Below, one piece after another: positions 6,903-63,696 of a stretch of 64,000 bases of DNA (positions are counted from its first letter, which is position 1; every line of letters begins with the position of its first letter). The notes beneath the pieces were generated by a model that had not been told where the DNA came from, made no database searches, and worked only from the letters and a program-made list of their open reading frames with translations. Source of the DNA: a virus; IMG/VR virus record IMGVR_UViG_3300047369_000650, positions 32,001-96,000 of that record; one strand, 5' to 3'. Both the position numbers and the translations under genes were made by a program.

Positions 6903-6912
6903 TAGGTAGAGC

Positions 6913-18365: not shown

Positions 18366-19394
18366 ATGGTAAGAATATTAGATTTAACCGCAATACAACA
18401 AGCTGATATAGATTCAAATGACCATCTTGTTATTTCTAATATCGGTGGGTCACCGATGGCTTCTTCAAGAGTTAGGGTAGAAGACTTTGTTCAATATACT
18501 CTTGCCGGCGGCTCTTTAGGTTTTGCTACAAAATCCGAAGTTGATAGTGCAATTGATGCTAATAATACCTTACATTTTCCTTTTACTATAAATGCTGGCT
18601 TGGGTCTTGATAGTTTATCAAATGGAATTTTAGATAGTGCCAATGATACAATTACAATTAATCATACCGCTAGTTCTGCCACATCAATTACTAGTGCTGG
18701 TACGTCAAATATTATTCGTAATATTACCTTAGATGGTGCTGGACATATTTTATCTATAGATGAATCAAATGGTGGTACTATATTCTTAGAGTCTGCTGGC
18801 GTGTTTGCAGGCACAGGTTTATCTGGTGGTGGTCAAATTACTCCAGGTAGCGGACCTGTTTATATTTCTCATCCAACTGCCGGTGGCTTATCTAATTCAA
18901 CAAATACAGGCACTAATGTTCTACAGAGTATTACATTTGATACATATGGTCACGGTGCATCAGTAACACCAGTTGATTTAACAACTGTTATTGATTCTTC
19001 TTATGTCTCAGCAAGAGTCCCTGATTTTGTAAGTGCTACTTCAGGTGATTCAATGGTTGGGGACTATTACATTACTGGCGAATTATTTGTATCTGGTAAT
19101 ATTACAGGTTTTGCAAACTTCTCGGATATAACATTAAAAGAAAATCTTGAAATTATTAATAATCCAGTAGATAAAGTAATGAATCTTAATGGCTATACTT
19201 TTAACTATATTGGTAGTGATATTCGTATGCCAGGTTTAGTTGCTCAAGAAGTTGAAGAAGTTTTACCAGAAGCGGTATATGAAACACCTCAAGGTAAAAA
19301 AGCACTACACTATGCAAACATGGTAGGACTACTCGTAGAAGCCGTAAAAGAGCTGAAAGCTGAGGTAGAAGAACTGAAAACAAAGATAGGGTAA
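18366..19394 (+). CDS. Tail fibre with C-terminal peptidase S74 autocleaving chaperone
   Basis: FSDITLKENL (Ser-Lys dyad), GLVAQEVEEVLPEAV and YANMVGLLVEAVKEL coiled coil. Confidence 0.88.
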   Translation: MVRILDLTAIQQADIDSNDHLVISNIGGSPMASSRVRVEDFVQYTLAGGSLGFATKSEVDSAIDANNTLHFPFTINAGLGLDSLSNGILDSANDTITINHTASSATSITSAGTSNIIRNITLDGAGHILSIDESNGGTIFLESAGVFAGTGLSGGGQITPGSGPVYISHPTAGGLSNSTNTGTNVLQSITFDTYGHGASVTPVDLTTVIDSSYVSARVPDFVSATSGDSMVGDYYITGELFVSGNITGFANFSDITLKENLEIINNPVDKVMNLNGYTFNYIGSDIRMPGLVAQEVEEVLPEAVYETPQGKKALHYANMVGLLVEAVKELKAEVEELKTKIG

Positions 19395-24458: not shown

Positions 24459-27400
24459 ATGTCAATAAGTGACAATCAAAAGTTAGACTTTCTGTGGAAA
24501 AAGCTCGGTTACGGAGCAACTAAGACAGACGTTAATTCCGTTAAGACCGCTACAAACGAGTCTATTCCAAGCCCGCTTCTTTTAAGCGGAACAGGTCTTT
24601 GGACAGATGCATATCAAATTCCAACTCTAATACCAAGCGCAAGTAGCCATATTGTTGAAATTTATGATGATACTGGTAATGGCTCCACTACTGTAGAAAC
24701 AGTAGAAGATACAACAGCAACACCAAATAGAACATGGAAAACAGGTTTAACCAATTGGATTCCACCACAGTTTGGATCTACTTATGCAATAAAAGTTTAT
24801 ATTGCTCCTACAGGTACTGCGGATCCTCAGACTTCAGGAACAAGAATTTTTGCTGCAGGTTCTGGTAATAACGATGAATTTTTCTTTGATTATCAGTCTG
24901 GTGTTCTTAATTTTATTGGTACAAATCTTCCATCTGGTATAGACGGTAATGAAATATTTATTGTTGGTGGTAGATATATCGGTAAAACTGGTAATAGATT
25001 TACTGCTCTTTATGCAGATTCAGCTGATATTGGTCATGCATTTATTGATTCAGCCGATATTGATATGGCTGACATTATTACTGCCTATATTGATAGTGCA
25101 GATATTTTACATGCGATTATTGATTCAGCGGATATTACTCTTGCTAAAATTACAAATGCAACTATTGACTCTGCTTATATAAAATATGCCGATATAGATC
25201 ATACAGATATTGATTCTGCTGATATCACTTTAGCCGATATTATAACTGCAAATATTACAACTGCTAACATAAACTATGCAGATATTGATTCCGCTGACAT
25301 AGATTTAGCTAAGATTATAACTGCAAATATTGATTCCGCTGATATAGGGCACGCTTATATTGATAGTGCTGAAATTGGTGTTTTAAATATTACTGGACAA
25401 ATAAATGGTCCACAAGATTTTATTATTGATCCTGCTGCTGTTGGTGATAACACTGGTAGAGTTATTATTAAAGGTGATCTACAAGTAGATGGTACTGAAA
25501 CAATTGTTAATTCTACTACTGTTACTATTAATGATAAAAACATTGTTCTTGCAGATTCAGCTCAAGATTCAAGTCAAGCCGATGGGGCTGGTATTACAGT
25601 ATTTGCAGCTAATGCCAAAATAACATATGAAGCAGCTCAAGATCGTTGGGTATTTAATAAAGATATTGATGCTCCAGCAATATATGCTGATAGTGGTATT
25701 ATAACATATCTCACGTCAACGTATGGAACAATTCAATATTTAACAAGCGATAGTGCTACTATAGGCAATATTACTTCAACAAACATTGATACTGTTAATC
25801 TTGATGCTGATAGTGGTACAGTCACTAACTTATATTCATCAACAGGAGTAATAGTTAATCTTACTTCATCTAATGGCGTTATAACTGTTCTTGCCTCAAA
25901 TTATGCAGATATTGATTCAGCTGATATAGATCAAGCAAGAATTTTAAAAGCAACCATTGATTCGGCTGGAATAGAATATGCTGATGTCGACAGTGCCGAT
26001 ATTGATGTACTTCGTGTTAAAGAGTTAACAGTAGATAGATTATATGCAGGATATGCAGATATTGATTCTGCTGACATAGATGTTCTTAGATCACTACAGA
26101 TTTCTGTAGATAGTGCAGGTATTAAATATGCAGATATTGATTCTGCTGATATTGAATTGGCTAAAATTGTTGGTCTTAATGCAGATAGTGCTAATATCAC
26201 AAACCTTACAGCTTTTGATGCAGATGTAACAGATTTATTTGCTAATCAAGGTGTTATAACAACACTTATATCACATTTTGCAGATATTGATTCGGCTGAA
26301 ATTGAGATTGCTAAAATTACAGGATTAACTGCTGATAGCGCCCATGTAACAGGTAATCTAACAGTTGGTGGTGATCTTACTGTAGCAGGTAATGCCACCA
26401 TTAGATCCGATGTTGGTGGAAATATTTATCTTGGTGATAGTAATGAAGATAATATTGTATTTAGCGGCGACATTAATTCTCATCTAATACCTAATACAAC
26501 TGAAACATTTAATCTTGGTAGTTTAGATAAAAGATGGAGAGACTTATATCTCTCTGGTCAGTCGATTTATTTAGGTGGGTTAATACTAAAAGAGTCAGAC
26601 GGTAAATTTGTAATTTATGATTCCGCTGGTAATCTTACTGACATTTTAGCTAAAGATATAACTGCTCAAACTTTAAATATTTCAGACAGTGCTTTTATCC
26701 AAAGATTTAGTGCCGATAGCGCAGTTATTCAATATCTAAAAGTTGGTCAAAGCTTAACTGTTACTGGCGATGGACTACAGTCAAATCAAATTACAACAGA
26801 TAGACTAAATGCGGGATTTGCTGATATAGATTCGGCAGAGATTGATGTTTTAAGAACTGGTAATCTAACAATAAGCGGAGACGGTATTACAACTCCATAT
26901 ATTAGTGCAGACTCTGCTGATATTGGTGTTTTAAGAATTGACTCTGGTAATTTTGAACATGTTATTATTGACTCAGCCGATATTAATGGAGCTTATATTG
27001 ATTCGGCAACAATAAGAAATTTATATATTAGTGGATCACTTTCTGGCGTAGGATTATCTGGGTTCATTCCTACCGCTGTTGGTGTAATGGATGCAAACGG
27101 TAGTTTAACTTCAGATTCGGGTTTAACATATAATGTAGATACAAATGATCTTACCGTACAAAATAATGTAATTGCAAAAGATGTAAAAATAACATCACTT
27201 TATCCGGGTTATATTTTAACTTCAGGTGCTAATGATTCAGTTGGTTTTACTGAAGGTCTTAAGTATGGTAATCATACTAGTGATATTATATCAAACGATG
27301 GTTTTGCTACATCTTTCCAAAAACTATATGATTCAGGATATTATAGATTTAATATCGATGATAATACTGGTAAACTTATTAATACGGGTGATGTACAACT

Positions 27401-30400
27401 TGGAAGATTTACAGATGCCGAGTTTGGAACATATTATGCACCATCATCTTGGACACTGCCAACCAATATTTCCGCACCAAGAGATTTTTATGGTTTAGAA
27501 ATATTTACTGATTCGGCTAAACTTGTATCAACTGCTCATACTAATATTTTTAAATCATCATTAAATAAAGATGGTATTGGTGCAGATTCAAATATAATTG
27601 AAGTATTAAGTCGTGAAGATAGTACACTCTTTGAAGTAAGAAAAGACGGATCTATAAACTTTACCGGAGATATCTATAAAAATGGCGACGTGTTTACTGG
27701 TGGTGGCATCTTTATTAAAGATGAGCCAAGTGGAGATGCAGCATATAATGTAGATCCTAGCAATGTAACTGATACAGTAGCTTTAGCACTTAAACTAACC
27801 GATGGTGTTACACCGTATGCTTATGGTAGAGTTGCTATAGGCACAGACACTCCAAAATATAAACTAGATGTTGTTGGTGATATATCTGTTAGAGGTCAAA
27901 TTGATTCTAACGTAAACTGGGCCGTATTAAAAGCTGGAGCAATTGCTCCGACATTTGATGAGTTTGTGGATGAAAGTGATGGTTCCAGATTTAGTTATAT
28001 AACACCGATTGGTGCAACTAGAGGTGGTTATTTTAGAGGTGGCTTAAATGGAGACTATCATTCTAATAATATAGGTCTATTCTCTACAGCATTCGGCGAG
28101 GCAACTAGAGCTGCTGGAATTGCATCATTTGCTGTTGGTTCTTTAACAGAAGCTGGTGGTAATTATTCAATAGCATTAGGTAAAAATGCTAGAACAAATG
28201 GTGCAAATACTGGTGCTATTCTTATAGGTACTGATGCTACTGTTGATTCTTCTACTGCGGCAGGGTCTTCTAATTATTCAATTGGTATAGGTTATGATGT
28301 TACCGTATTTGGTACTAATGCATTAGCCATAGGTGCTGAAAATTCAACAAATGGTAATCAGTCAGGTACATTTGGTTATAATAATAATATAGGCACTTCT
28401 TCAAGTAGAACTGCAACTGCTGGTTCATATGCAATAGGTACAGGAAATACGGTAGAAGCTGCTGGTTCATATACAATAGGTAGTAACAATACTCTAAAAG
28501 GTAATCCATCATTTGCCTTTGGTGGAGCCAATGTTGTTGAAGGCGCCAATGCATTCTCGATAGGTATACAAAATTCAGTATATGGACCTAGTGGTATTGC
28601 TATAGGTACTGATATTAGAATCGATTCAAGTGCATCAAATGCTATCGGCATCAACTTAAATGCCTCAAACTCTATGAATGTTGCTGATCCAAGAATTTTA
28701 AGTATTCAAAATGGTAACGTAATTATTGGAGACTCCGCTCAAAAATTTAGTAATGATGATGGTAATCTTTATGTTAAAGGTGATATTATTCTTGCCGGTG
28801 AAGTTCTTCAAGAAGGAGCTCCAGGTGTTTTCCAAAGTACAACACCATTTGTTGATGGCGGCACTGAAGTAACCTATCAAGTTTTAGATCCTGAAGGAGT
28901 ACCAAAGCCATTAGGTATTAACAAAGAGCCATCTTTCTCTTTGGATGTTGCAGCACAAGATGGTTTTGCAGTGTCTGGTATTACAGATGGTGCATTTACT
29001 ATAGCAGATAGCGCTCTAATTGATTCAGCACCATTTGTTGGTGGCGCCGATCAAAACTTCTTAGTATATCTTCCAGCACTAGAAGCCTTTAGAGTTGGTA
29101 AATTTACAGACTATGAAGAACAGCTTGCAAATGATAAAATAGGTCTAGGTTCTATTGCACTAGGGAAAGATAATTCAGTATCTGGTCTCTATAGTACTGC
29201 ATTAGGTAATAATAATACAATACCTAGAGGTGGAGATGCTTCACTCACTAGCACTAAGGGTAGTTATATAACATTCTTAGGCAATAATAATATATTTGAT
29301 AGTGAAGCTATTGGATCTAATAATTATGTTTTAGGTGAAGATAATATTATAAAAGGCACTACCACAGACACAGTCTTAATCGGTAGAAATATTACGGCTA
29401 CTGATCTTACTCGCCAAATTATAATGAAAACAGCAAATGCGGGCGATAGTGCACTTGATAATACTAAAGTTGCAATCGGTAAAGATTCCGCTACATATGC
29501 ACTTGATGTTCGTGGTACAATTAGAGTTGATAGTGGTGCTACAATGTACTTCGGCTCTAAAACAATTCAAGATTATCTTGGGTTTGGTGTTCCGCAACCA
29601 GTAGGAGCAGGTTTTGGCTCGGGCACTGCGATCGCAAATGGAATTGATTCCATACAGTTTGATCATACTATTGATGCCATTAATAATGTAGCAAGAGTTA
29701 AAGTACCATATGATCATCAGTTATATATTGATCCAACTATGGCACCAGACTTAACGAAAGCCATACAACTTGATAACATTCTTCTAACTGAACTAACTAC
29801 AAAATCTGGTAACGATTTAGATACAATTTTCTATTTTGCCGATCCTATTGACTCATTCCAGTTTGCATTACGCAGGGATTCACATGAGGGCCCACCAGTT
29901 ATATCTACTGGTACAATAGATAGTAATATTTCTATTGTTGATGGATTTGATTTCGGAGATAGTGGCGACTTAATTATTGTTCCATATACTGCTCCTAGAA
30001 TTATTAGCCCAGATTTAAATGTTGCTGGTAATCTTGTTGTTGGTGGAGACGGAACAAATCTTAGAGTTGATTCGAATGGTGTCTCATTTAATAATGATCT
30101 AGCATTTACAAGTAAAAAAGGTGGTACATCATTTAGATTTGATTCTGCTGGTATTACGGTTGGCGGTAGTTTTGCTCTAGGCGGTAATAGTGTTACTATT
30201 GGAGGTTTATCTTTTGATAGCCATGTTATTAGACCTGGTAACTTACTAACCAATTTTATAGATACAGACTATGTTCAAGAAAGACTCTCCGTTGATGCAA
30301 ATTGGGTTGTTAAATCCGATGCCTTAGTTTATAATCCGTCAGGTATTAAGAAAATAATATTAGGTGGTCTTGGTGTAGGAGATTTAACATCTACTCAACT

Positions 30401-33400: not shown

Positions 33401-36400
33401 TGGTGCTAATAGTACAGCATCTGGATTTAGATCTGTAGCAATTGGTAGTGGAATAACAGTTAATGGTGTTAATTCTGTTGGTATTGGTTTATCATCAAGT
33501 ACTTCTGGAACAGTAAATGCCGCAAATACTCTTGCAATTATGGGCGGCAAAGTTGCTATAGGTCAAGCTTCTGCAGATCCAGCATATCAGGTTGATATAT
33601 ACGGTAATGTTCACGTTGGAGTATTTGGCGATTACTGGAGACACGGTAAGAGACTTAGTGATTATATTGAAGATGATGTTGTAACCGATACTTATGTTAA
33701 AAACATAGCAAATAGCGCATATGTTCAAGGAATTATAGATGTTCCTTATCTAAGAAGCACTATGACATCTCAGTTCTTCTTCTATAGTGATGCTATTTCA
33801 AATGATCTTTATACTACAACATCAGGTTCTGTTGGTATTGGTAGACAACCAACAAACTCAAGTAAGTATAAACTAGATGTTGATGGAAGTATTAATTATA
33901 CTGGTAAGCTATATCTCAATGGTGATTTACTTATCCCAAGTGAAGATTCTCTTGGTGATGTTTATATTGAACACCACGAAAATCAATACTTTATTGGTCC
34001 AGATAGTGCCGAAGAATATTTTGACTCAGCTTATGTTACAGCTCGTCAACAAATGTTCGGGTTTACTCAGGGACAGACATATACCACAGTAATTGATGAA
34101 GGTTATATCAATAGTAGATTAGATGATACACTATTTGTGGATTCAAATGAAGCACAAACTATGATCGACGCTTCAATACGTGATAAAGTTGCTTTCCAAT
34201 TCGATCCGGCTTTTGGAGATGTTGTTCTACTGGATGATCCACTTGGTAATGCTCCAAGAGTCGCGATAGGTGTTGCGGCTGAATTTGGAACAGCATTAAG
34301 AGTTAAGGGTCTCACTAAGATCGAGGGTGATTTAGACATTGAAGCTGGTGTTCTAAAATTCAATGGAGTAACATTCCAGCCTACTACAGTGTTTACTGAT
34401 GATATCAGTGGATATGTTTATTATAATGGTCCTAAGAATATAGGTATAGGAACAGTAGTACCAACAACAGAATTAGATGTTGCTGGAACAATTAATGCTG
34501 AAGCACTACAAGTAAATGGTGTTGATCTTGATGATATATATGACTCTGATTTTATTAGAGATAGACAAATATTAATTGATTCAGCATTAACTACAGCACT
34601 TATTGATTCCGATTATGTAAGAGCAAGAGCTGATTCAGATTATGTCCAATCTGCAATTACATCAGATTATATTAAATCGTATATAGATTCAGATTATATT
34701 AAATTTGTAGCTGATTCAGATTATATCCAATCTGCTGCCAATCAAGCTTGGATTAGAGCTAATGCAGATTCTGATTATGTTCTTTCAATAGCTGATTCAG
34801 ACTATATTAAGACTGCAGCTAATCAGACTTGGATTAGAACTAATGCAGATTCCGACTATATTAAGACTGCAGCTAATCAGACTTGGATTAGAACTAATGC
34901 GGATTCAGATTATATTCAATCTGCTGCAAATCAAGCTTGGATCAGAACTAACGCAGATTCAGCATATATTCTTTCAGCTGCAAATCCAGCTTATATACTT
35001 TCAATAGCGGATTCTGATTATGTAAAAACAGTTGTTGATTCAGCATATACACAAACTTTAACCGGTATCGGTATAAGAGATGTTGATTTTGGTATTAATA
35101 AAATCACATATAGAAATGCTTATACTGACATAGCATCTTTCCCTGCGGCAAATACTCATGGTGGTATGTTTGCATTAGAAAATGTAAATAAGAAACCATA
35201 TGTTTCCACTGGATCAGCTTGGAATCGCATTATCTTAAATGGTGATAGTGTAGAATTTTCTGATCTTATTGTAACAGGTGATCTTACTGTTCTCGGAACA
35301 CGAACAGTACTTAATACTCAAACTCTGGGTATTGACGATCCAATGATTCATCTTGGAAAAAATAATGAACTATCTGATGCCGTAGATATTGGTTTCATTG
35401 GGCATTATTCTCCAGATGGTGGTACTACAAAAGAACATACTGGTTTCTTTAGAGATGCAACAAATAGTGAATATTATATATTTAATGGATTAGATGATGC
35501 TGCTCTTGATGATAGTGATCCAACAGCTACTGTGGATAGAAGCGGCAGTGGATTTACTCTTGCTGCCTTAAATGTAGGATCTATAGCAGGTCAATATCTA
35601 GGATTTGATTCAGACTTTAGTGTTAAAACTACAACTGATCTTACCGAAGGATCTAATCTATATTATACAACTGCAAGAGCAAATACAGATTTTGATACTA
35701 GATTAGCAACTAAAACTACAACCGATCTAACAGAAGGCACAAACCTATATTATACAGATGATCGTGTAACTGCTCATGTTGATTCGGCATATGTACAACT
35801 TAGAAGCCCACAATTTGATTATCTAACAGTTATTGATTCGGCATATGTACAAGCTAGACAAGAGCCAGGTACTGACTCAGCGGCAGTAATTGCACTTATT
35901 AATGCTAATGCTACACTGGATTCTGCGGCTACAGTTTCTCTTATTGATTCGGCTTATGTTAATGCTAGAGTTTCTACAGTCGACAGTGCTCAAGTTCTTG
36001 CAATAGTTGATTCAGACTATATTTTAAGTATATCAGGATCTGGCGGAAGTGGATCAGGCGGAGTTACTGTTCTTAAGACATTTAACTATATTGCAACAGC
36101 CGGGCAAACAACTTTTGAGGATTCTGATCTTAATAGTGATATTTTAGAATACACAGTTGGTTCTCAGATTGTTACTGCAAACGGTATTACTCTTACAAGT
36201 GGTGCTGATTACACTGCAACTTCTGGTTCAAGTATAGTATTTGCGGCGGCTAGAGATAGTAATGATGAAATTTCTATTATCACAACAGTTAGTTCTGGAG
36301 ATGCCGGAGTTTCAGGATCTACTGCAACATCAGCATTTAATGTAACATCTGGATCTACTACTACATTTGATCAGACACTTCATAATAATAATTTTAAGTC

Positions 36401-36647
36401 TGTAGAATATGTAATTCATATGGATGATTCTGATAATAACCAATCTCAGATTAGCAAAGTATTACTTACATATAATAAATCAAACGTATTTACTACTGAA
36501 TACGGTCTTGTAAATTCTTATAGTAATGATAGTGATATGGGCGAAATTACTGCAGTAGCTACTGCTTCTATGATTCAACTTCAATTAACAAAATCGGCAG
36601 GTACAGGAACAGTTGCGGTAAAAACAACTAAAACAATAATCAGTTAA
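24459..36647 (+). CDS. Giant (4,062 aa) multidomain tail fibre/adhesin
   Basis: Uninterrupted ORF with AxIxx pentapeptide blocks, YadA-head-like repeats, VGIGT/VAIG connectors, DSDY helical repeats and TTDLTEGxNLYYT repeats. Confidence 0.8.
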   Translation: MSISDNQKLDFLWKKLGYGATKTDVNSVKTATNESIPSPLLLSGTGLWTDAYQIPTLIPSASSHIVEIYDDTGNGSTTVETVEDTTATPNRTWKTGLTNWIPPQFGSTYAIKVYIAPTGTADPQTSGTRIFAAGSGNNDEFFFDYQSGVLNFIGTNLPSGIDGNEIFIVGGRYIGKTGNRFTALYADSADIGHAFIDSADIDMADIITAYIDSADILHAIIDSADITLAKITNATIDSAYIKYADIDHTDIDSADITLADIITANITTANINYADIDSADIDLAKIITANIDSADIGHAYIDSAEIGVLNITGQINGPQDFIIDPAAVGDNTGRVIIKGDLQVDGTETIVNSTTVTINDKNIVLADSAQDSSQADGAGITVFAANAKITYEAAQDRWVFNKDIDAPAIYADSGIITYLTSTYGTIQYLTSDSATIGNITSTNIDTVNLDADSGTVTNLYSSTGVIVNLTSSNGVITVLASNYADIDSADIDQARILKATIDSAGIEYADVDSADIDVLRVKELTVDRLYAGYADIDSADIDVLRSLQISVDSAGIKYADIDSADIELAKIVGLNADSANITNLTAFDADVTDLFANQGVITTLISHFADIDSAEIEIAKITGLTADSAHVTGNLTVGGDLTVAGNATIRSDVGGNIYLGDSNEDNIVFSGDINSHLIPNTTETFNLGSLDKRWRDLYLSGQSIYLGGLILKESDGKFVIYDSAGNLTDILAKDITAQTLNISDSAFIQRFSADSAVIQYLKVGQSLTVTGDGLQSNQITTDRLNAGFADIDSAEIDVLRTGNLTISGDGITTPYISADSADIGVLRIDSGNFEHVIIDSADINGAYIDSATIRNLYISGSLSGVGLSGFIPTAVGVMDANGSLTSDSGLTYNVDTNDLTVQNNVIAKDVKITSLYPGYILTSGANDSVGFTEGLKYGNHTSDIISNDGFATSFQKLYDSGYYRFNIDDNTGKLINTGDVQLGRFTDAEFGTYYAPSSWTLPTNISAPRDFYGLEIFTDSAKLVSTAHTNIFKSSLNKDGIGADSNIIEVLSREDSTLFEVRKDGSINFTGDIYKNGDVFTGGGIFIKDEPSGDAAYNVDPSNVTDTVALALKLTDGVTPYAYGRVAIGTDTPKYKLDVVGDISVRGQIDSNVNWAVLKAGAIAPTFDEFVDESDGSRFSYITPIGATRGGYFRGGLNGDYHSNNIGLFSTAFGEATRAAGIASFAVGSLTEAGGNYSIALGKNARTNGANTGAILIGTDATVDSSTAAGSSNYSIGIGYDVTVFGTNALAIGAENSTNGNQSGTFGYNNNIGTSSSRTATAGSYAIGTGNTVEAAGSYTIGSNNTLKGNPSFAFGGANVVEGANAFSIGIQNSVYGPSGIAIGTDIRIDSSASNAIGINLNASNSMNVADPRILSIQNGNVIIGDSAQKFSNDDGNLYVKGDIILAGEVLQEGAPGVFQSTTPFVDGGTEVTYQVLDPEGVPKPLGINKEPSFSLDVAAQDGFAVSGITDGAFTIADSALIDSAPFVGGADQNFLVYLPALEAFRVGKFTDYEEQLANDKIGLGSIALGKDNSVSGLYSTALGNNNTIPRGGDASLTSTKGSYITFLGNNNIFDSEAIGSNNYVLGEDNIIKGTTTDTVLIGRNITATDLTRQIIMKTANAGDSALDNTKVAIGKDSATYALDVRGTIRVDSGATMYFGSKTIQDYLGFGVPQPVGAGFGSGTAIANGIDSIQFDHTIDAINNVARVKVPYDHQLYIDPTMAPDLTKAIQLDNILLTELTTKSGNDLDTIFYFADPIDSFQFALRRDSHEGPPVISTGTIDSNISIVDGFDFGDSGDLIIVPYTAPRIISPDLNVAGNLVVGGDGTNLRVDSNGVSFNNDLAFTSKKGGTSFRFDSAGITVGGSFALGGNSVTIGGLSFDSHVIRPGNLLTNFIDTDYVQERLSVDANWVVKSDALVYNPSGIKKIILGGLGVGDLTSTQLLEHSFATDVRGNGKAPLVFKETTGKAIDDALGQSPINIINSAGVARAWPNADYLSNIIDPTYINSRVVIDGNTIANFIDDTYVKSIVDSAYILSAANDSSEWQRTSDTLFFGTYPNVQNVKVGIGTDNPQTKFHVTGVGRFDSGLTVTGGPVNISGTQITVDSDYFYQITPSILTDNIVTINNGTLLTFLNNDTDSQFVTYTMGGEDERFIDVYRTDSLGATQAVSPLDYEIIGSSFIINRSAVDSADSDLNLNFRTLPSNIVFSGADLNGDTLNINTTYSSGVLLDSQQNPKAGYGGTFTAVNSGQVSFTDHSSLQLGDVFRVDDKSPKITTSLSLTGPTSLTGNLTVNNGYATTLDTLIANSITSSLTTFTGPVVVDSSTVSFTFDSNVTMYYGPGSLSFDSNIERIVDSNYIGNRLQGIWSFNNDAYGNQQIYYDDGGAVVIGEPEDMVAGDSDTKLFVKSGNVIFRHGDWDSANVAVTTPGVIPDFSTNTRYGDNAGARLMWIPQRGAFRVGAVDGVDVDWGDEEVGRASVGIGYNTRAADYSIALGYDIKAGNHILNKINSVSIGHTVNNQSDGAVAVGSNISHSQLYSGSVSIGEGIVNNNRADGTAIGKDISTNSGVSIGKTVSTVNSATSVSIGYNQRANTNSTSIGKSSGSNNSGVSIGSSATSNNSTSVGNNVSSSVGGTTIGVSSSTSNGGVAIGNNVSGGNRGKAIGASLSANQGATVIGTSSNADYSAISIGVSNDIRRGSVGIGSSNKATHPYGGSTLIGKSNTATSNNVTIVGQNNSGGGFYGGQAIIGRDNTGNSSKGLIVGRSNTGHNANSATSNYTIFGWANVNNSPASNRSTTSGGPVRIFGNSNSTNAGSNIYGSSNTDNKQVTIYGNNNTGSIGPSGTSYIYGTNNVITRNGMLFGANNTATDTGYAFGVGNTTANGGYSYGKGNTTTLGEGYAFGYNNTTDGTSGTDEPMAFGHNITASSGGLGFGENLTVSNGGLGFGANSTASGFRSVAIGSGITVNGVNSVGIGLSSSTSGTVNAANTLAIMGGKVAIGQASADPAYQVDIYGNVHVGVFGDYWRHGKRLSDYIEDDVVTDTYVKNIANSAYVQGIIDVPYLRSTMTSQFFFYSDAISNDLYTTTSGSVGIGRQPTNSSKYKLDVDGSINYTGKLYLNGDLLIPSEDSLGDVYIEHHENQYFIGPDSAEEYFDSAYVTARQQMFGFTQGQTYTTVIDEGYINSRLDDTLFVDSNEAQTMIDASIRDKVAFQFDPAFGDVVLLDDPLGNAPRVAIGVAAEFGTALRVKGLTKIEGDLDIEAGVLKFNGVTFQPTTVFTDDISGYVYYNGPKNIGIGTVVPTTELDVAGTINAEALQVNGVDLDDIYDSDFIRDRQILIDSALTTALIDSDYVRARADSDYVQSAITSDYIKSYIDSDYIKFVADSDYIQSAANQAWIRANADSDYVLSIADSDYIKTAANQTWIRTNADSDYIKTAANQTWIRTNADSDYIQSAANQAWIRTNADSAYILSAANPAYILSIADSDYVKTVVDSAYTQTLTGIGIRDVDFGINKITYRNAYTDIASFPAANTHGGMFALENVNKKPYVSTGSAWNRIILNGDSVEFSDLIVTGDLTVLGTRTVLNTQTLGIDDPMIHLGKNNELSDAVDIGFIGHYSPDGGTTKEHTGFFRDATNSEYYIFNGLDDAALDDSDPTATVDRSGSGFTLAALNVGSIAGQYLGFDSDFSVKTTTDLTEGSNLYYTTARANTDFDTRLATKTTTDLTEGTNLYYTDDRVTAHVDSAYVQLRSPQFDYLTVIDSAYVQARQEPGTDSAAVIALINANATLDSAATVSLIDSAYVNARVSTVDSAQVLAIVDSDYILSISGSGGSGSGGVTVLKTFNYIATAGQTTFEDSDLNSDILEYTVGSQIVTANGITLTSGADYTATSGSSIVFAAARDSNDEISIITTVSSGDAGVSGSTATSAFNVTSGSTTTFDQTLHNNNFKSVEYVIHMDDSDNNQSQISKVLLTYNKSNVFTTEYGLVNSYSNDSDMGEITAVATASMIQLQLTKSAGTGTVAVKTTKTIIS
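25005..27030 (+). repeat. Three blocks of in-frame A-x-I-x-x pentapeptide repeats (ADIDS consensus)
   Basis: For example ADIDM-ADIIT-AYIDS-ADILH-AIIDS-ADITL-AKITN-ATIDS. Blocks at about 25005-25385, 25900-26340 and 26690-27030. Confidence 0.85.
28068..28660 (+). repeat. YadA-head-like about 14-aa repeats, block 1
   Basis: STAFG/SFAVG/SIALG/AILIG/SIGIG/ALAIG/SYAIG periodicity. Confidence 0.7.
31995..33545 (+). repeat. YadA-head-like repeats, block 2 (about 500 aa)
   Basis: SVGIG/SIALG/SVSIG/AVAVG/GTAIG... and GYAFG/GLGFG periodicity. Confidence 0.7.
34575..35050 (+). repeat. 9/18-aa DSDY repeat array containing a near-exact 54-nt tandem duplication
   Basis: 34800-34853 versus 34854-34907 differ at 2 of 54 nt; unit DYIKTAANQTWIRTNADS. 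Confidence 0.9.
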
Positions 36648-36666
36648 GCCACGGGGAAAGTGAACT

Positions 36667-39600
36667 ATGGCAATTAAAGACTTTAAGGTCAAAAACGGTA
36701 TTATTACTGGAGGCAGTATAATACCAGACTCAGATGAAGCATATGATCTGGGTTCTGCGACAAGAAAATGGAAAGACCTATATTTAAGTGGTAGTACACT
36801 TATATTAGGCAATATACGTCTAAAAGATAGTGGTGGAATACCAAGCTTTGAAGCTGCTGGCGGCGGAAAGGTAAAGATAGACCTTTCAGCTATGACTACA
36901 GCCGACTTAGCCGAACATAATACAGCTAAATATTTCACAGAAACCAGATCAAGATCAGCTTTTAGTACACATAGTGGTTCTTCACATTATGATTCTGGAA
37001 CTGGTATTTTTACCCTACCGTCCACAACAGATCATGTAACTGAGGGAAGTAATTTATTCTATACTCAAGGCAGATTTGACACAGCATTTACTGCTAAATC
37101 GACTACTGATCTAAGTGAAGGCACAAATCTTTATTATACAACTACTCGTCATAATACTGATTTTGATACAAGACTTGGTACTAAATCAACTGATAATCTA
37201 TCCGAAGGTTCTAATCTTTATTATACAACCGCTCGTCAAAATACTGATTTTGACACAAGACTTGGTACTAAATCAACTACTAATTTAAGTGAGGGAACAA
37301 ATCTTTATTATACAGATGCTAGAGCAGATGCTAGAGCACAATTAAAAATAGATGATCTTGTGGATGCAGCCCCAGGAACTCTCGACACTTTAAATGAGTT
37401 AGCTGCTGCACTTGGGGATGATGCTAACTTTAGTACAACAGTAACTAACAGTATAGCAACAAAACTTCCGACTATTACTGTAGTAACTGTTACTGTTGCA
37501 AGTGCAACTAATCAATACGGGTCTGGTAATAAATATCATTTTAACGGTGCTGTTAGTCCAGTTCTCCATCTACAACCTGGTAGAACATATAGATTTGATC
37601 AGTCTGACTCAAGTAACTCAAGTCATCCATTAAGGTTTTCTACTAATGCTAATAATAGCCCTTCGGCAACTTATAGTACAGGTGTAACTGTAAGTGGTAC
37701 TCCGGGAAGTGCTGGGGCTTATACAGAAATTGCTGTTAATTTTGCAACACCAAGATTACATTATTATTGCACTAACCACTCTGGTATGGGCGGATCTGGA
37801 CCTGATTATTCTGTGAATTTTAATGGAGCATTCAGTTCATTAACAGGTACTCCTACAACCATTGCTGGTTATGGTATCACAGATGCTTTTGATGGAGCTT
37901 TTAGTTCATTAACAGGTACTCCTACAACCATTGCTGGTTATGGTATCACAGATGCTTTTGATGGTGCATATGGCTCGCTAACTGGCACACCATCAACATT
38001 TACTCCATCTGCTCATAACCAAGCTTGGACAACAATTACTAGCACACCTACTACAATTAGTGGTTATGGTATTACAGATGCTCAGGCTACACTTGTGTCT
38101 GGGACTAATATAAAAACAGTAAATGGTACTTCATTACTCGGTTCTGGTAACATTACAATATCAGGCGGCGGAGGTAGTAGTGGTACCGATTCTGCTACAG
38201 TTTCATCAATTATCTTGTCTGATGTTGATTCAGCTTATGTTCAAGCTAGACAATCTGGTGGTGGTTCTGGAATAAGCTTATCAGAAGCAAGGGCAGGTAT
38301 ATCAGTCACCACGGCTTCTGCATCAGGTGGAGGTTCTTTAAGCTATAATAGTTCAACAGGTGTTCTTACCTTTGCACCATCTACTAACTCAGGTGGAGGT
38401 GGAGGCTCTGGAACCGTAGACTCTGCTCAAACTATTTCTCTTATACAGTCTACTATTGATTCGGCTTATATTCAAGCAAGAGAAATTAATAATATTTCTA
38501 TAGGTAAAGCAAGTCTTGTAGATTTTAAATTTATTGCAGATAGTGCACAAACAGCATTTTCTGGAAATGATGCTGACGGGAAATCTTTAGTATTTGAAGA
38601 TAGTAATTATGAAGTATTTGTAAACGGTATTAGACTTTTAAAATCTGATTACTCAGTTAATTCAGCCACAAACGTTGTAACTCTAGGCACGCCAGCTATA
38701 GATGAAGACGAAGTTGTTATTAAAACTATTGTTGGAGTTGACACTCTGAGTCTTATAGATTCGGCTTATGTAAATGCAAGAGTAAGATCAAGTAAGGCTC
38801 TTGATGGATTAACAACTTATAAATTTTCTGTTGATAGTGGCCAAACAACATTTACGGGAAATGATGAAAATGGATCATTACTTTCTTATTCTGCAGGTGA
38901 TGTACAAGTATTTTTAAATGGCATATTATTACTTGAAACAGATGATTATACCGCAACAAACGGGACAAGTGTTGTTCTTAGTGCGGCAGCTCCAGCAACA
39001 TCAGAATTAGTTGTTCAAGCTTATAATATATCAGAAGTTTCGACATATAGAAGCTTACCTGGATTAGATGTTTATAATTATACAGCAACTTTAAATCAAA
39101 CAAACTTTAGTGGTGCAGATGTTGATGGTAATTCTCTTATATATCATCCAGGTGCTATATTAGTTTCTCTTAATGGTATTATATTAAGTTCAGTAGATTA
39201 CACTGCAACAGATGGGTTTTCTATTGTATTGACAGATGCCGCTGAATCGGCTTCTGAACTTACAATAACTTCTTTTGCTGGTAGTGCAGCAATAGACTCT
39301 GCATATATTAATTCAAGACAGACTTTATATGCAAATGAAGATGTATTATCTTTTGTAGATTCTGCTTATGTACAAGCTAGACAAGCTCCCGGTACTGATT
39401 CAGCTGCAGTTCTTGGTATTGTAAATCAAGCATATATTAGATCAAATGTAGATCAAGCATATATTAGATCACAGCAAATTACAGGTCTTGATTCAGCTTT
39501 AGCTGATGGCTTCTTAATGACATCAGCAGAAACTACAGCTCTTGTAGATTCATCATATGTACAAGCTAGACAAGCTCCCGGTACTGATTCAGCTGCAGTT

Positions 39601-40521
39601 CTTGGTATTGTAGATTCTTCTTATATTCAATCTGTGTTTAGTTCAAGTACTGGTAGTGCAATATCAACATTTAGATATACTTCGGATTCTAATCAATCTG
39701 TATTTACTGGCGCAGACGATGCAGGAAATACTTTATCATATAACTCTGGTCAAATTCAAGCATTTTTAAATGGTATCGTAATTGTAGATGGTGTTGATTA
39801 TACTGCAACAAATGGAAATTCTTTTACTCTTACAGATCCAGTTGTAAATGGAACCGAATTACTTATTACATCTCATACTAATTCATATATTAAAGAATTT
39901 ACTAATAATAATTACTTTCATAATCAATCTTATTTTAAGAATTATGTTTATTCATCAGATTCTGGACAATTAACATTTAGTGGCGCAGATAGTAATGGAG
40001 AAACTTTATCCATTGACACAAATAATCATCAGGTATTCGTTAATGGTATTAGAATATTATCAGATGACTTTACTGCTAATACTTCAACAAATACTATTAC
40101 TCTTAACGATGCAACAGAAGCTGGAGATGAAGTTGTAATTAATACACTTCAAACAGATACTTCATCTGTATTACAAATTACTGGAGCCGATTCAGATTAT
40201 GTAACAGGTATTGTGAATAGTGTTTTAAGTAATGATTATATAGAAGTAAATGCTACACCTCACGCTGCCCAGTTTAATAAAAAATTAATTGTAGATACTT
40301 CCTCATCTTCTATAACAATAAATATGCCAAGTTCTCCTACACTAGGTAATGAAGTTAAAATTATAGATGGTGCTGGAAATGCAGAAACAAATAATATCAT
40401 AGTAAGTTCTTCGGATAAAATATTGGGTTCAGATTCTAATTTGATTATTGATGTAAATGAGGCAGCATTTGGTTTAGTATATTATAATGCAACTCGTGGT
40501 TGGATATTGACCGAAAAATAA
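36667..40521 (+). CDS. Tail fibre (1,284 aa) with repeats, a cupredoxin-like domain, five about 70-aa beta domains and a gp34-repeat-like C-terminus
   Basis: TDLSEGTNLYYT repeats, PTTIAGYGITDA repeats, VFxNGI..DYTAT repeats, and the terminal VDTSSSSITINMPSSP...IIDGAGNAETNNI...LVYYNATRGW domain. Confidence 0.8.
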   Translation: MAIKDFKVKNGIITGGSIIPDSDEAYDLGSATRKWKDLYLSGSTLILGNIRLKDSGGIPSFEAAGGGKVKIDLSAMTTADLAEHNTAKYFTETRSRSAFSTHSGSSHYDSGTGIFTLPSTTDHVTEGSNLFYTQGRFDTAFTAKSTTDLSEGTNLYYTTTRHNTDFDTRLGTKSTDNLSEGSNLYYTTARQNTDFDTRLGTKSTTNLSEGTNLYYTDARADARAQLKIDDLVDAAPGTLDTLNELAAALGDDANFSTTVTNSIATKLPTITVVTVTVASATNQYGSGNKYHFNGAVSPVLHLQPGRTYRFDQSDSSNSSHPLRFSTNANNSPSATYSTGVTVSGTPGSAGAYTEIAVNFATPRLHYYCTNHSGMGGSGPDYSVNFNGAFSSLTGTPTTIAGYGITDAFDGAFSSLTGTPTTIAGYGITDAFDGAYGSLTGTPSTFTPSAHNQAWTTITSTPTTISGYGITDAQATLVSGTNIKTVNGTSLLGSGNITISGGGGSSGTDSATVSSIILSDVDSAYVQARQSGGGSGISLSEARAGISVTTASASGGGSLSYNSSTGVLTFAPSTNSGGGGGSGTVDSAQTISLIQSTIDSAYIQAREINNISIGKASLVDFKFIADSAQTAFSGNDADGKSLVFEDSNYEVFVNGIRLLKSDYSVNSATNVVTLGTPAIDEDEVVIKTIVGVDTLSLIDSAYVNARVRSSKALDGLTTYKFSVDSGQTTFTGNDENGSLLSYSAGDVQVFLNGILLLETDDYTATNGTSVVLSAAAPATSELVVQAYNISEVSTYRSLPGLDVYNYTATLNQTNFSGADVDGNSLIYHPGAILVSLNGIILSSVDYTATDGFSIVLTDAAESASELTITSFAGSAAIDSAYINSRQTLYANEDVLSFVDSAYVQARQAPGTDSAAVLGIVNQAYIRSNVDQAYIRSQQITGLDSALADGFLMTSAETTALVDSSYVQARQAPGTDSAAVLGIVDSSYIQSVFSSSTGSAISTFRYTSDSNQSVFTGADDAGNTLSYNSGQIQAFLNGIVIVDGVDYTATNGNSFTLTDPVVNGTELLITSHTNSYIKEFTNNNYFHNQSYFKNYVYSSDSGQLTFSGADSNGETLSIDTNNHQVFVNGIRILSDDFTANTSTNTITLNDATEAGDEVVINTLQTDTSSVLQITGADSDYVTGIVNSVLSNDYIEVNATPHAAQFNKKLIVDTSSSSITINMPSSPTLGNEVKIIDGAGNAETNNIIVSSSDKILGSDSNLIIDVNEAAFGLVYYNATRGWILTEK
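36895..37330 (+). repeat. About 29-aa TTDLSEGxNLYYTxxRxxTDFDTRLxTK repeats (also at 35625-35765 and about 17575-17635)
   Basis: In-frame about 87-nt repeats visible in both DNA and protein. Confidence 0.85.
37823..37960 (+). repeat. 69-nt tandem repeat x2, plus a degenerate third copy (GAFSSLTGTPTTIAGYGITDAFD; phage fibre repeat)
   Basis: 37823-37891 versus 37892-37960 differ at 2 nt. Confidence 0.9.
39367..39612 (+). repeat. 57-nt exact direct repeat (YVQARQAPGTDSAAVLGIV)
   Basis: 39367-39423 is identical to 39556-39612; a related copy lies at about 35835-35890 in the neighbouring gene. Confidence 0.9.
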
Positions 40522-57680: not shown

Positions 57681-58379
57681 ATGGAAGCTTATGCTATAGT
57701 AATTGAAGGTAATGAAATATCTGAAGCTGGATATGCAGCTTTAGCTAAAAGTTCATATGATGTAAAAAATGAATTTAAACTGAAACAGTTTAAAGCCATT
57801 ACTCCCGATGTAGTAGAAAAAGATATGTATGATCAAGATGTTCAATGGACATATCCTTGGGAAGGTTCTGTTGTTGATTTTGCTTCGGGTCTTACAAAGT
57901 CTGCTTATGTGACTGCCAACCCAAAGGCAAGAATGGCATGTGCCATGAGTCATTTTTCTTTATGGCAACTTTGCTTTGAAAGAAGACAACCTATTATTAT
58001 ATTAGAACACGATGCTATCTTTACTCAGAAAATAGATTTTATACCAGATGATACCGGATTTGATATTGTTGGTTTAAATAATCCTCTTGGTGCTACTCGT
58101 AGAGCAAAACAATATCATGATTCCATATTAAAAAATAAGCAAGCATTTCAGCTAACACCTTATGTGGATGAAGATATGAAAGCTCCTCAAGGGCTTGCTG
58201 GAAACTCAGCATACTTCATAAAACCAGAGGGTGCCGAACAAATGATTTCTTTGGTTTATAAGTATGGTATGTGGCCAAATGATGCACTTATGTGTAGACA
58301 ACTTGTAAATGGGTTAGGAGTAACTAGAAAATTCTATACTAGAATACAAGGCCTTAAATCAACTACAACAAGGAGTTAA
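57681..58379 (+). CDS. Glycosyltransferase family 25-like, copy 1
   Basis: ACAMSHFSLWQLC, IIILEHDAIF and GNSAYFIKPEGA motifs. Confidence 0.85.
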   Translation: MEAYAIVIEGNEISEAGYAALAKSSYDVKNEFKLKQFKAITPDVVEKDMYDQDVQWTYPWEGSVVDFASGLTKSAYVTANPKARMACAMSHFSLWQLCFERRQPIIILEHDAIFTQKIDFIPDDTGFDIVGLNNPLGATRRAKQYHDSILKNKQAFQLTPYVDEDMKAPQGLAGNSAYFIKPEGAEQMISLVYKYGMWPNDALMCRQLVNGLGVTRKFYTRIQGLKSTTTRS

Positions 58380-58382
58380 AAT

Positions 58383-58562: not shown

Positions 58563-58563
58563 T

Positions 58564-59734: not shown

Positions 59735-59737
59735 AAT

Positions 59738-61295: not shown

Positions 61296-61298
61296 TTT

Positions 61299-63599: not shown

Positions 63600-63604
63600 A
63601 TAAT

Positions 63605-63679: not shown

Positions 63680-63696
63680 AACAAAAAGGATATATT

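What the first reader, a model, noticed from the sequence alone, without database searches (positions are those of the whole stretch)
24459..40521. Virion proteins saturated with Asp-Ser(-Ala): a candidate O-glycosylation sequon
Seen (hand counts): about 100 DS dipeptides, about 48 of them DSA, in the 4,062-aa protein. My rough expectation is only 30-40 DS if D is about 8-9% and S about 10%. There are about 24 in the 1,284-aa protein and about 18 in the 1,311-aa protein. DS recurs in unrelated contexts (ADIDSADI, IDSAYVQARQ, ADSDYI, GTDSAA) and across genes (17148, 18366, 21438, gp7, gp8), yet I found none in the Ser-rich second YadA block. Known: Bacteroides O-glycosylation uses D-(S/T)-(A/I/L/V/M/T), and Elizabethkingia/Flavobacterium proteins are glycosylated at D-S with O-methylated sugars. 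Inference: these DS sites are acceptors for the adjacent GT/MTase cluster. Alternative: DS acts as a helix N-cap, beta-turn or Ca-binding motif.
Basis: partly seen in the sequence, partly recalled or inferred. Interest (0 to 1): 0.8.

Follow-up and report, generated by a model that had tools for sequence, protein, structure and literature searches.

The report
Asp-Ser motif saturating marine phage fibres
The tail-fibre proteins of this uncultured marine T4-like phage really do carry the pair Asp-Ser two to three times more often than chance, mostly at fixed points of repeated building blocks; whether the serines also carry phage-made sugars is still an open, testable idea.

Summary
The 4,062-aa protein has 102 DS and 48 DSA (37 DS expected, z 12). 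The 1,284-aa protein has 24 DS and the 1,311-aa protein 19. SD is not enriched and DT is depleted. DS is the most over-represented dipeptide in the fibre module (obs/exp 1.96) and is not enriched in the rest of the phage (0.93). A DNA-level cause (GANTC sites) was tested and rejected.

The sites sit at defined structural points: the two variable positions of a true pentapeptide-repeat beta-helix, the starts of predicted short helices (Phi-D-S-[A/S/D]-Y-[I/V]), and the first turn of gp10-like beta-sandwich domains. All 120 listed homologues are DS-rich, and DS serines are strongly conserved.

The Bacteroidota sequon analogy fails: Thr is avoided, only 63 of 121 sites fit the third-position rule, that system is periplasmic, and the host looks alphaproteobacterial.

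A conserved cassette (two GT25 genes plus a 224-aa protein with sub-threshold MptE/Maf-type similarity) occurs in every sufficiently complete DS-rich relative and in no DS-normal phage. All of these belong to one clade, the cassette is not syntenic with the fibres, and no modification is shown.

Best reading: a structural capping motif. Glycosylation remains a live rival. The scan has flagged the same feature on other marine phage DNA.

The parts
24459..36647 (+). Giant fibre protein (4,062 aa) with 102 DS and 48 DSA. Its N-terminal anchor domain (aa 1-180) has no DS.
   Evidence: (phrog_9417 on aa 1-189)
25008..27038 (+). Pentapeptide-repeat (A-D-I-x-x) arrays, aa about 184-860, with 32 DS. 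D and S fill the two variable positions. In the first array 8 of 26 pentapeptides end in DS.
   Evidence: DNA period 15/45/90; solved pentapeptide-repeat proteins, E down to 6.5e-19, register shown
31839..33938 (+). Ser-rich block (aa 2461-3160) with no DS at all (4.2 expected).
34524..36068 (+). 9/18-residue repeat array (D-S-D-Y-I-x-x-x-A) and Phi-DS-A-Y-V-x-A-R modules, aa 3356-3870, with 23 DS.
   Evidence: (DNA period 27/54/81); no match in GenBank phages or in PDB sequences
36667..40521 (+). Fibre protein of 1,284 aa with 24 DS. It combines Phi-DS-[A/S]-Y-[I/V]-x-[A/S]-R and T-DS-A-x-Phi helix-start modules with repeated gp10-like beta-sandwich (XD) domains that begin 'A-D-S-G-Q-T'.
43041..46976 (+). 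Structural protein of 1,311 aa with 19 DS (obs/exp 1.78). Contexts are heterogeneous and there is no DSA.
18366..19394 (+). Short fibre (342 aa) with a Peptidase_S74 chaperone domain. It has 6 DS (z 2.9), including one I-D-S-S-Y-V-S-A-R module.
5355..8280 (+). Two outer baseplate wedge proteins (515 aa and the gp8-type 455 aa) with mild DS excess (z 2.2 and 2.6).
8271..13805 (+). VrlC-type protein, which marks the upstream edge of the pelagimyophage-type host recognition cluster. DS is not enriched (0.56).
   Evidence: 31% identity, E 4e-65 to HTVC008M VrlC; PMC7029224
51722..61973 (+). Variable GT/methyltransferase island inside the host recognition cluster. It holds a GT8-like gene (weak), sugar O-MT-like genes, Methyltransf_24, an aldolase-like gene, two GT25 genes and unknowns.
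   Evidence: mosaic gene content in relatives; followed by tRNAs, a laminin-G protein, then gp13-gp20
57681..61973 (+). Conserved core cassette: GT25 (57681-58379), GT25-like (59950-60612), a 228-aa unknown (60609-61295), and a 224-aa protein with sub-threshold MptE/Maf-type similarity (61299-61973).
   Evidence: GT25 and the 224-aa gene lie about 1-2 kb apart in G006-G009, G016 and G017.

Best explanation
Asp-Ser is a conserved structural punctuation mark of the modular units that build the fibres of one uncultured marine T4-like clade.

It occupies three kinds of position:
- the two variable, outward-facing positions of a pentapeptide-repeat beta-helix (A-D-I-D-S);
- the N-terminus of short helices, in the pattern Phi-D-S-[A/S/D]-x-Phi, which is the pattern of an N-cap with a hydrophobic staple;
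- the turn after the first strand of gp10-like beta-sandwich domains (A-D-S-G-Q-T).

The high count arises because these modules have been amplified in tandem and shuffled among fibre genes, while purifying selection keeps D and S.

Shown: the enrichment, the repeat registers, the homology to solved pentapeptide-repeat proteins, the conservation, and the restriction to one clade. Inferred: that the role of D and S is capping or turn formation, because the helix predictions are of low confidence and no trimer model could be made.
For: - Register against solved pentapeptide-repeat proteins (E to 6.5e-19): D and S align with the X-X of A(D/N)LXX, and the 'A' of DSA is the invariant Ala of the next repeat.
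- Tandem DNA repeats underlie both large arrays.
- Shared context: a hydrophobic residue at -1 (I, V, A or F in 70 of 102 sites) and I, V or F at +4 in 64 of 102.
- In the AlphaFold model of aa 495-820 of the 1,284-aa protein, all four Phi-DS-A modules have a helix starting at the Ser. The invariant ADSGQT pair lies in the loop after strand 1 of domains with pLDDT 77-88. Those domains match gp10-like XD domains of CBA120 TSP4 and phage baseplates.
- DS sites are positionally conserved. D585-S586-A587 and D723-S724 are invariant in 19 sequences that are 31-78% identical to the window protein. Ser is kept at 78% of DS sites against 37% for other Ser.
- All 120 listed family members are DS-rich and carry 3-25 DS[ASD]Y[IV] modules.
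Against: - A purely structural cap should tolerate Thr, Asn or Gly, yet S-to-T is three times rarer at DS sites than at other Ser (4.2% against 13.5%) and DT is depleted.
- The same folds in other phages do without DS. Fibres of S-TIM54, Melnitz, HTVC008M and P-SSM2 have obs/exp about 0.5-1.7. Among 150 diverse proteins that share the N-terminal repeat region the median is 1.11.
- Enrichment also appears in clade proteins that are not homologous to these modules, such as a 1,312-aa protein in G036 with 19 DSD. That hints at a clade-specific factor that reads DS.
- In the variable positions of a pentapeptide repeat there is little structural reason to prefer DS.
- Helix starts were predicted at pLDDT below 50.
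Confidence: 0.45

Rival explanations
1. DS is a Ser-specific acceptor tag. Soluble phage-encoded glycosyltransferases (the conserved GT25 pair plus the 224-aa MptE/Maf-like protein, with methyltransferases decorating the sugar) glycosylate exposed DS serines of fibre proteins in the cytoplasm. This would work like the OTase-independent glycosylation of flagellins and beta-helical adhesins.
For: - The enrichment is ordered (DS), Ser-specific and limited to fibres and outer baseplate. It occurs in several unrelated structural contexts.
- Every DS-rich record at least 45% complete (G000, G006, G007, G008, G009, G016) has tandem GT25 genes and the 224-aa gene.
- No DS-normal phage has the 224-aa gene. 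That includes complete G005, S-TIM54, Melnitz and HTVC008M, and also GT25-positive P-SSM2.
- PF01973 is the only Pfam family hit repeatedly by the 224-aa family (14 of 25 members).
- One island gene weakly resembles a sugar O-methyltransferase.
- Precedent for cytoplasmic glycosylation of repeat Ser in beta-helical adhesins: PMC4358343, PMC12871550.
Against: - All DS-rich, cassette-positive records form one clade (gp6 40-80% identical to the window's). All negatives are outgroups (about 30%), so there is no independent contrast.
- PF01973 hits are far below threshold (12.7 bits against a cut-off of 34.6; best E 0.0065). No solved structure matches the profile.
- No CMP-sugar synthetase or NeuB-type synthase is encoded in seven records, two of them complete.
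- The cassette lies 20-110 kb from the fibres in relatives. In G002 the DS-rich fibres run straight into gp13-gp17.
- G038 has the 224-aa gene but only mild DS excess (pooled 1.26).
- The published reading of these GTs is host O-chain modification (PMC7029224).
- No modification has been observed.
Confidence: 0.3
2. DS is read by some other factor, or binds something. Possibilities are a site for a fibre-assembly chaperone, a different modification such as phosphorylation, or a cation-binding or inter-chain hydrogen-bonding layer in the trimer.
For: The features are the same as for the tag model: clade restriction, Ser specificity and conservation. Asp plus Ser are common metal or water ligands (own knowledge). 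The fibre module contains chaperone-type genes (Peptidase_S74, tail fibre assembly PHROGs).
Against: No kinase, no specific chaperone and no metal-site signature was found. The sites lie all round the beta-helix rather than in one stripe (register). Nothing here tests this idea directly.
Confidence: 0.1
3. The host's Bacteroidota-type general O-glycosylation system uses D-(S/T)-(A/I/L/V/M/T) sites on the virion proteins.
For: 63 of 121 D[ST] sites fit the motif, against 29.7 expected.
Against: DT is depleted, and G, D, N or S fill the third position in 47 of 121 sites. That system modifies only non-cytoplasmic proteins, after the glycan is flipped to the periplasm (PMC12871550), whereas tailed-phage virions assemble in the cytoplasm (established knowledge). 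The phage carries a permuted tmRNA with an ANDNFA... tag and a pelagimyophage-type cluster, which points to an alphaproteobacterial host.
Confidence: 0.01
4. The DS excess is a by-product of selection on the DNA word GANTC (the CcrM site), which GAY-TCN creates.
For: GANTC is twice as frequent as expected in the giant gene (81 against 39), and 69 of the 81 sites are in frame 0.
Against: Ser in DS uses TCN no more often than other Ser does (0.66 against 0.69), so one third of DS sites make no GANTC. Glu-Ser (GAR-TCN), which also makes GANTC, is depleted (obs/exp 0.40). GANTC in the other two frames is rare.
Confidence: 0.02

Closest known systems
Pentapeptide-repeat (Rfr-fold) proteins, e.g. 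Nostoc Np275/Np276 (2j8k), All3740 (3du1) and designed beta1 solenoids (4yfo, 5dns)
   Same: Tandem A-(D/N)-(L/I)-X-X units. The match is significant by sequence (E to 6.5e-19), with the same register.
   Different: The central residue is Ile rather than Leu or Phe. About one third of the units have X-X = D-S. The array is embedded in a 4,062-aa phage fibre. Pfam's pentapeptide models did not score below E 0.01.
Host recognition cluster of pelagimyophages and cyanomyophages (Zaragoza-Solas et al. 2020, PMC7029224)
   Same: A hypervariable block between VrlC and gp13/gp14 that holds fibres with YadA-, concanavalin-A- and laminin-G-type domains together with glycosyltransferases. The layout here is the same.
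   Different: That paper does not mention a DS motif in the passages read. It reads the GTs as modifiers of the host O-chain. GT8 is its commonest family, whereas the conserved core here is GT25 plus a 224-aa protein. This clade's gp6 is only about 32% identical to HTVC008M's.
Bacteroidota general protein O-glycosylation, sequon D-(S/T)-(A/I/L/V/M/T) (PMC12871550, PMC8550257)
   Same: Asp directly before the Ser, Ala often after it, and methylated sugars are known in that system.
   Different: That system accepts Thr, rejects Gly at the third position, acts in the periplasm on exported proteins, and is confined to Bacteroidota. Here Thr is avoided, G/D/N/S are common at the third position, the proteins are cytoplasmic virion parts, and the host looks alphaproteobacterial.
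Cytoplasmic OTase-independent O-glycosylation of repeat adhesins and flagellins: BAHT TibC on TibA/AIDA-I (PMC4358343); Maf on flagellin; SdgA/SdgB on staphylococcal Ser-Asp repeats (the last two from my own knowledge)
   Same: Many Ser residues on a repetitive beta-helical or filamentous surface protein are modified by dedicated soluble enzymes before assembly or export.
   Different: No BAHT, GT41 or SdgB-type enzyme was found. Maf-type similarity is sub-threshold. No donor pathway is encoded. The motif is ordered D-S within structured modules, not a low-complexity (SD)n tract.
Virion glycosylation by phage- or virus-encoded GTs (mycobacteriophages: Freeman et al. 2023, seen only as reference 61 of PMC12801897; chlorovirus capsid glycans, own knowledge)
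   Same: The virus encodes its own GTs, and in chloroviruses methyltransferases too, which decorate virion proteins in the cytoplasm.
   Different: Those cases concern capsid and tail-tube proteins and have been shown experimentally. Nothing has been shown here, and the candidate targets are fibres of a T4-like marine phage.

Membership tests
Bacteroidota O-glycosylation sequon D-(S/T)-(A/I/L/V/M/T) | Ser and Thr both serve as acceptor after Asp | tested here: not met
   DT obs/exp is 0.53 in the giant protein and averages 0.49 over 120 homologues. S-to-T at DS sites is 4.2% against 13.5% for other Ser.
Bacteroidota O-glycosylation sequon D-(S/T)-(A/I/L/V/M/T) | Third residue is A/I/L/V/M/T; Gly is not tolerated | tested here: inconclusive
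   63 of 121 sites fit, and 48 of those are Ala, which the repeat structure requires. D (21), N (11), G (10) and S (5) fill 47 sites.
Bacteroidota O-glycosylation sequon D-(S/T)-(A/I/L/V/M/T) | Substrates are non-cytoplasmic proteins glycosylated in the periplasm of a Bacteroidota host | tested here: not met
   The requirement is stated in PMC12871550. The host signal here is alphaproteobacterial: a permuted tmRNA with tag ANDNFAPSGYALAA and a pelagimyophage-type cluster. Cytoplasmic assembly of virions is established knowledge and was not tested here.
Pentapeptide-repeat proteins | Tandem five-residue units A(D/N)LXX with significant similarity to solved members | tested here: met
   phmmer E 6.5e-19 to 5dns, 6.1e-11 to 2j8k and 1.1e-10 to 3du1, with the register shown. 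There are 26 consecutive units in aa 184-313.
Helix N-cap with hydrophobic staple | Cap residue (D/S/T/N) flanked by hydrophobic residues at N' and N4, with the helix starting just after the cap | tested here: inconclusive
   Hydrophobic residues are enriched at -1 and +4. Predicted helices begin at the Ser in 4 of 4 modules, but at pLDDT below 50 and in a monomer model.
Maf / MptE-like (PF01973) flagellin-type O-glycosyltransferases | Significant match to the MptE-like domain | tested here: inconclusive
   The window protein 61299-61973 scores E 0.11 and 12.7 bits against a cut-off of 34.6. 14 of 25 family members hit at E up to 1, best 0.0065. No whole-record match passes the cut-off. The profile finds no solved structure.
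Maf / MptE-like (PF01973) flagellin-type O-glycosyltransferases | A CMP-nonulosonate donor pathway is available (NeuB/PseI-type synthase, CMP-sugar synthetase) | tested here: not met
   PF03102 and PF02348 are absent from G000 and six DS-rich relatives, two of them complete. Supply by the host cannot be excluded.
Dedicated adhesin glycosylation systems (BAHT and the like) | The GT gene is conserved next to its substrate gene | tested here: not met
   The cassette lies 17-25 kb downstream of the DS-rich fibres here but 20-110 kb away in G006-G009, G016 and G017. In G002 the fibres are followed directly by gp13-gp17.
Pelagimyophage-type host recognition cluster | A hypervariable block between VrlC and gp13/gp14 that contains fibres and GTs | tested here: met
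   VrlC homologue; fibres and island; gp13, gp14, gp15, gp17, gp18 and gp20 follow; definition in PMC7029224.

The most novel reading that the evidence does not exclude
Asp-Ser is a Ser-specific sequon read by a phage-encoded cytoplasmic cassette (two GT25 enzymes plus a small MptE/Maf-like protein, with sugar methyltransferases). If so, an abundant clade of marine T4-like phages, probably infecting SAR11-type Alphaproteobacteria, coats its tail fibres and outer baseplate with its own glycans.
Probability: 0.27. Interest if true: 0.8.

Novelty: new variant of a known kind. Interest (0 to 1): 0.5.

Why it matters
Tail fibres decide which cells a phage can infect, and this clade is abundant in the ocean: each family searched here has hundreds of metagenomic relatives.

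If the motif is only structural, it defines reusable fibre modules that can be recognised from sequence: a pentapeptide beta-helix, DS-capped helices and gp10-like domains. That helps annotate the large unannotated fibre genes of marine myophages.

If the serines are glycosylated, this would be the first sequon-directed virion glycosylation in T4-like phages. It would change the reading of the glycosyltransferases in 'host recognition clusters', which are currently assumed to alter the host surface. It would also bear on receptor binding, on particle stability in sea water and on grazing or immune recognition.

The hypothesis can now be tested directly with a defined fragment and a defined four-gene cassette.

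Tried and rejected
- DNA-level cause (GANTC/CcrM sites): rejected from codon usage and from the depletion of Glu-Ser.
- Host Bacteroidota system: rejected (see membership test).
- General property of tail fibres: rejected. Fibres of S-TIM54, Melnitz, HTVC008M and P-SSM2 are DS-normal.
- Pure repeat artefact: rejected as the sole cause. Non-array segments are also enriched about 2.2- to 3.2-fold, and DS sites are conserved across 31-78% identical homologues.
- GT co-occurrence as independent evidence: not accepted, because gp6 identities show one clade against outgroups.
- Reverse test through island-bearing contigs: uninformative, because assemblies break inside the fibre genes.
- Small complete phages that share part of the 1,284-aa family (G032, G033): neither DS-rich nor GT25-positive, so uninformative.
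- GT2 and GT4 families (PF00535, PF00534): absent from all records tested.
- The 9/18-residue array: no match in GenBank phages or in PDB sequences.
The AlphaFold model is too poor to search (pLDDT 50.5). Its conserved G-x-H-R and GS...D-x-D motifs suggest ParB/Srx-like and nucleotidyltransferase-like parts, by inspection only.

Full report
**What the window is.** The window is bases 32001-96000 of a 177.5-kb IMG/VR virus record estimated 86% complete. It holds the baseplate and fibre module of a T4-like myovirus:
- a gp5-like hub, a gp6-type wedge protein (3509-5350) and a gp8-type wedge protein;
- a VrlC-type protein (8271-13805), 31% identical to HTVC008M VrlC at E 4e-65;
- a run of fibre genes, then a 10-kb island of small GT and methyltransferase genes.

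Downstream lie a tRNA cluster, another laminin-G-type protein, and then gp13, gp14, gp15, gp17, gp18, gp20 and gp23. This is the 'host recognition cluster' described for pelagimyophages, a hypervariable block between VrlC and gp14 that holds fibres plus glycosyltransferases (PMC7029224). The phage also carries a permuted tmRNA with the tag ANDNFAPSGYALAA. From my own knowledge that points to an alphaproteobacterial host. Its gp6 is only about 32% identical to that of the cultured pelagiphage HTVC008M.

The hand counts are exact: 102 DS and 48 DSA in the 4,062-aa protein (37.0 DS expected, z 12.4), 24 DS in the 1,284-aa protein (z 3.9) and 19 in the 1,311-aa protein (z 2.7). The excess is directional and residue-specific. 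In the giant protein SD is 0.97 of expectation and DT 0.53. Glu-Ser is 0.40 across the fibre module. DS is the most over-represented dipeptide in the 14 fibre-module ORFs (1.96) and is not enriched in the other 152 ORFs of the phage (0.93). The block at aa 2461-3160 has no DS at all.

**Where the sites sit.** Two large arrays are tandem repeats that are also visible in the DNA.

- *Pentapeptide array.* The first array (aa about 184-860) is a genuine pentapeptide repeat. It matches solved pentapeptide-repeat proteins at E down to 6.5e-19. In the alignments A-D-I-D-S lies on A-(D/N)-L-X-X. D and S therefore fill the two variable positions, which from my knowledge of the Rfr fold face outward. 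The 'A' of 'DSA' is the invariant Ala that starts the next unit. Eight of the first 26 units end in DS.
- *9/18-residue array and the Y-[I/V] module.* The second array (aa 3356-3870) has 9- and 18-residue units of the form D-S-D-Y-I-x-x-x-A. A related module, Phi-D-S-[A/S/D]-Y-[I/V]-x-[A/S]-R, recurs in the giant protein, the 1,284-aa protein and the 401- and 342-aa fibres.
- *Common context.* Over all 102 sites the context is a hydrophobic residue at -1 and I, V or F at +4.
- *Predicted structure.* An AlphaFold model of aa 495-820 of the 1,284-aa protein has mean pLDDT 60.6. It is poor for the linkers, as expected for a monomer model of a probable trimer. It starts a helix exactly at the Ser of all four Phi-DS-A modules. 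It places the invariant 'A-D-S-G-Q-T' pair in the loop after the first strand of two beta-sandwich domains with pLDDT 77-88. Foldseek matches those domains to gp10-like XD domains of the CBA120 TSP4 N-terminus and of phage baseplates.
- *Classification of the 102 sites.* 22 are in pentapeptide register, 12 are in the Y-[I/V] module, 17 are other DS-A-x-Phi sites, 30 are other Phi-DS sites and 21 are in none of these classes.

**A family and clade trait.** The 1,284-aa protein has at least 909 metagenomic relatives. All 120 listed are DS-rich (obs/exp 1.8-4.4; SD mean 0.85; DT mean 0.49), with 3-25 copies of DS[ASD]Y[IV]. In an alignment of 19 sequences (the others 31-78% identical to the window protein), D585-S586-A587 and D723-S724 are invariant. 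Ser is retained at 78% of DS sites against 37% for other Ser, and S-to-T is 4.2% against 13.5%.

Fibres of more distant marine myophages are DS-normal. Relatives that share only the giant protein's N-terminal anchor domain (54-65% identical) fall into DS-rich and DS-normal classes. Among 150 diverse proteins that share the N-terminal repeat region the median obs/exp is 1.11. Other clade members have DS-rich proteins that are not homologous to these modules.

**Testing the glycosylation idea.**

*The Bacteroidota analogy fails.* Thr is avoided. Only 63 of 121 sites obey the third-position rule, and most of those are the structurally required Ala. That system modifies only exported proteins in the periplasm (PMC12871550).

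*The island itself.* It contains two GT25 genes, a weak GT8-like gene, methyltransferases (one weakly like a sugar O-methyltransferase) and an aldolase-like gene. No gene reaches the threshold of a known protein O-glycosyltransferase family.

*The Maf lead.* Earlier notes of this scan on other genomes suggested a small Maf-like enzyme, so I tested that. PF01973 gave only one sub-threshold hit in a relative. Its counterpart here is the 224-aa protein at 61299-61973. In that family 14 of 25 members hit PF01973 weakly (best E 0.0065; the window's own copy E 0.11), and no other family recurs. No solved structure matches by sequence. No nonulosonate synthase or CMP-sugar synthetase is encoded.

*Co-occurrence.* Tandem GT25 genes and the 224-aa gene, lying about 1-2 kb apart, are present in every DS-rich record at least 45% complete: G000, G006, G007, G008, G009 and G016. 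They are also in G017, where the fibres lie off the contig. No DS-normal phage has the 224-aa gene, including complete G005 and the isolates S-TIM54, Melnitz and HTVC008M. P-SSM2 has GT25 but lacks the 224-aa gene, and its large baseplate and fibre proteins in the module examined are DS-normal.

This looks striking, but gp6 identities show that all positives form one clade (40-80% identical to the window's gp6) and all negatives are outgroups (about 30%). The two traits could simply share ancestry.

The cassette is also not syntenic with the fibres. In G008, G009, G016 and G017 it lies 21-42 kb upstream of gp6. In G007 it is 90 kb downstream of the fibres, or about 26 kb upstream of gp6 if the record is circularly permuted. 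Only in this phage and in G006 does it lie downstream of the fibres, by about 17 kb and 48 kb respectively. In the fragment G002 the DS-rich fibres run straight into gp13-gp17. G038 has the 224-aa gene but only mild DS excess (pooled 1.26).

**A DNA-level alternative.** GAY-TCN spells GANTC, the CcrM site. GANTC is twice as frequent as expected in the giant gene, but this is a by-product. Ser codon choice in DS equals that of other Ser (TCN 0.66 against 0.69), and Glu-Ser is depleted.

**Verdict.** It is a Ser-specific, conserved motif of the fibres and outer baseplate of a whole marine T4-like clade.

The best-supported mechanism is structural: a cap or turn element of amplified modules (confidence about 0.45). 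Ser specificity, clade restriction and the clade-wide GT25 plus 224-aa cassette keep phage-encoded O-glycosylation alive as a rival (about 0.3). Nothing available here can separate the two. The experiment that would is straightforward.

The same feature has been flagged by this scan on several other marine phage genomes. Those are unchecked AI notes, and I used them only as leads.

**Limits.** Most relatives are metagenomic fragments.

Noticed in passing
G000 genome 160143-160639 (outside the window): ARAGORN calls a permuted (two-piece) tmRNA with tag peptide ANDNFAPSGYALAA. I used it only as a clue to an alphaproteobacterial host.
   Followed up: partly
window 63523-64000 (continues to genome 96094): A cluster of five tRNA genes (Arg-TCT, Trp-CCA, Pro-TGG, Asn-GTT, Met-CAT) lies directly after the GT/MTase island.
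   Followed up: no
window 24459-36647: The giant fibre gene holds 81 GANTC (CcrM-type) sites against about 39 expected, and 69 of them are in the Asp-Ser reading frame. This is a by-product of DS, but the gene would be unusually densely methylated in a CcrM-positive host.
   Followed up: yes
window 53889-55055: A 388-aa island protein with no family assignment is very abundant and conserved in marine metagenomes (499 hits; the 120 listed are at least 75% identical). Its invariant G-x-H-R and GS...D-x-D motifs suggest ParB/Srx-like and nucleotidyltransferase-like parts. The AlphaFold model was poor (pLDDT 50.5).
   Followed up: partly
window 24459-24998 (aa 1-180 of the giant protein): The N-terminal anchor domain (phrog_9417) is 54-65% identical in phages whose gp6 is only about 30% identical (G004, G005, G010). 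There it heads DS-normal proteins. It is an exchangeable adaptor module, and in some relatives it is a separate gene of about 340 aa.
   Followed up: partly
L042/L043, G001, G003 (relatives): Independent metagenomic contigs end at the same places inside or just after the fibre genes. Assemblies evidently break in this hypervariable, repeat-rich region, which limits any comparative test.
   Followed up: no
G007:C1:133762-134356: This relative's copy of the 224-aa MptE/Maf-like gene is interrupted by one in-frame TAG. That could be a pseudogene, a sequencing error or a recoded stop.
   Followed up: no
G000 genome 113651-119671 (outside the window): A further 2,006-aa long-tail-fibre-like protein lies after the portal gene, away from the main fibre block, and is mildly DS-enriched (24 DS, z 2.7).
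   Followed up: no
window 37094-37314 and 37818-37969: Near-perfect tandem DNA repeats (87-nt unit, 82% match; 69-nt unit, 93% match) in the 1,284-aa fibre gene encode repeated 'T-P-T-T-I-x-G-Y-G-I-T-D-A' type units. This indicates recent internal duplication.
   Followed up: no
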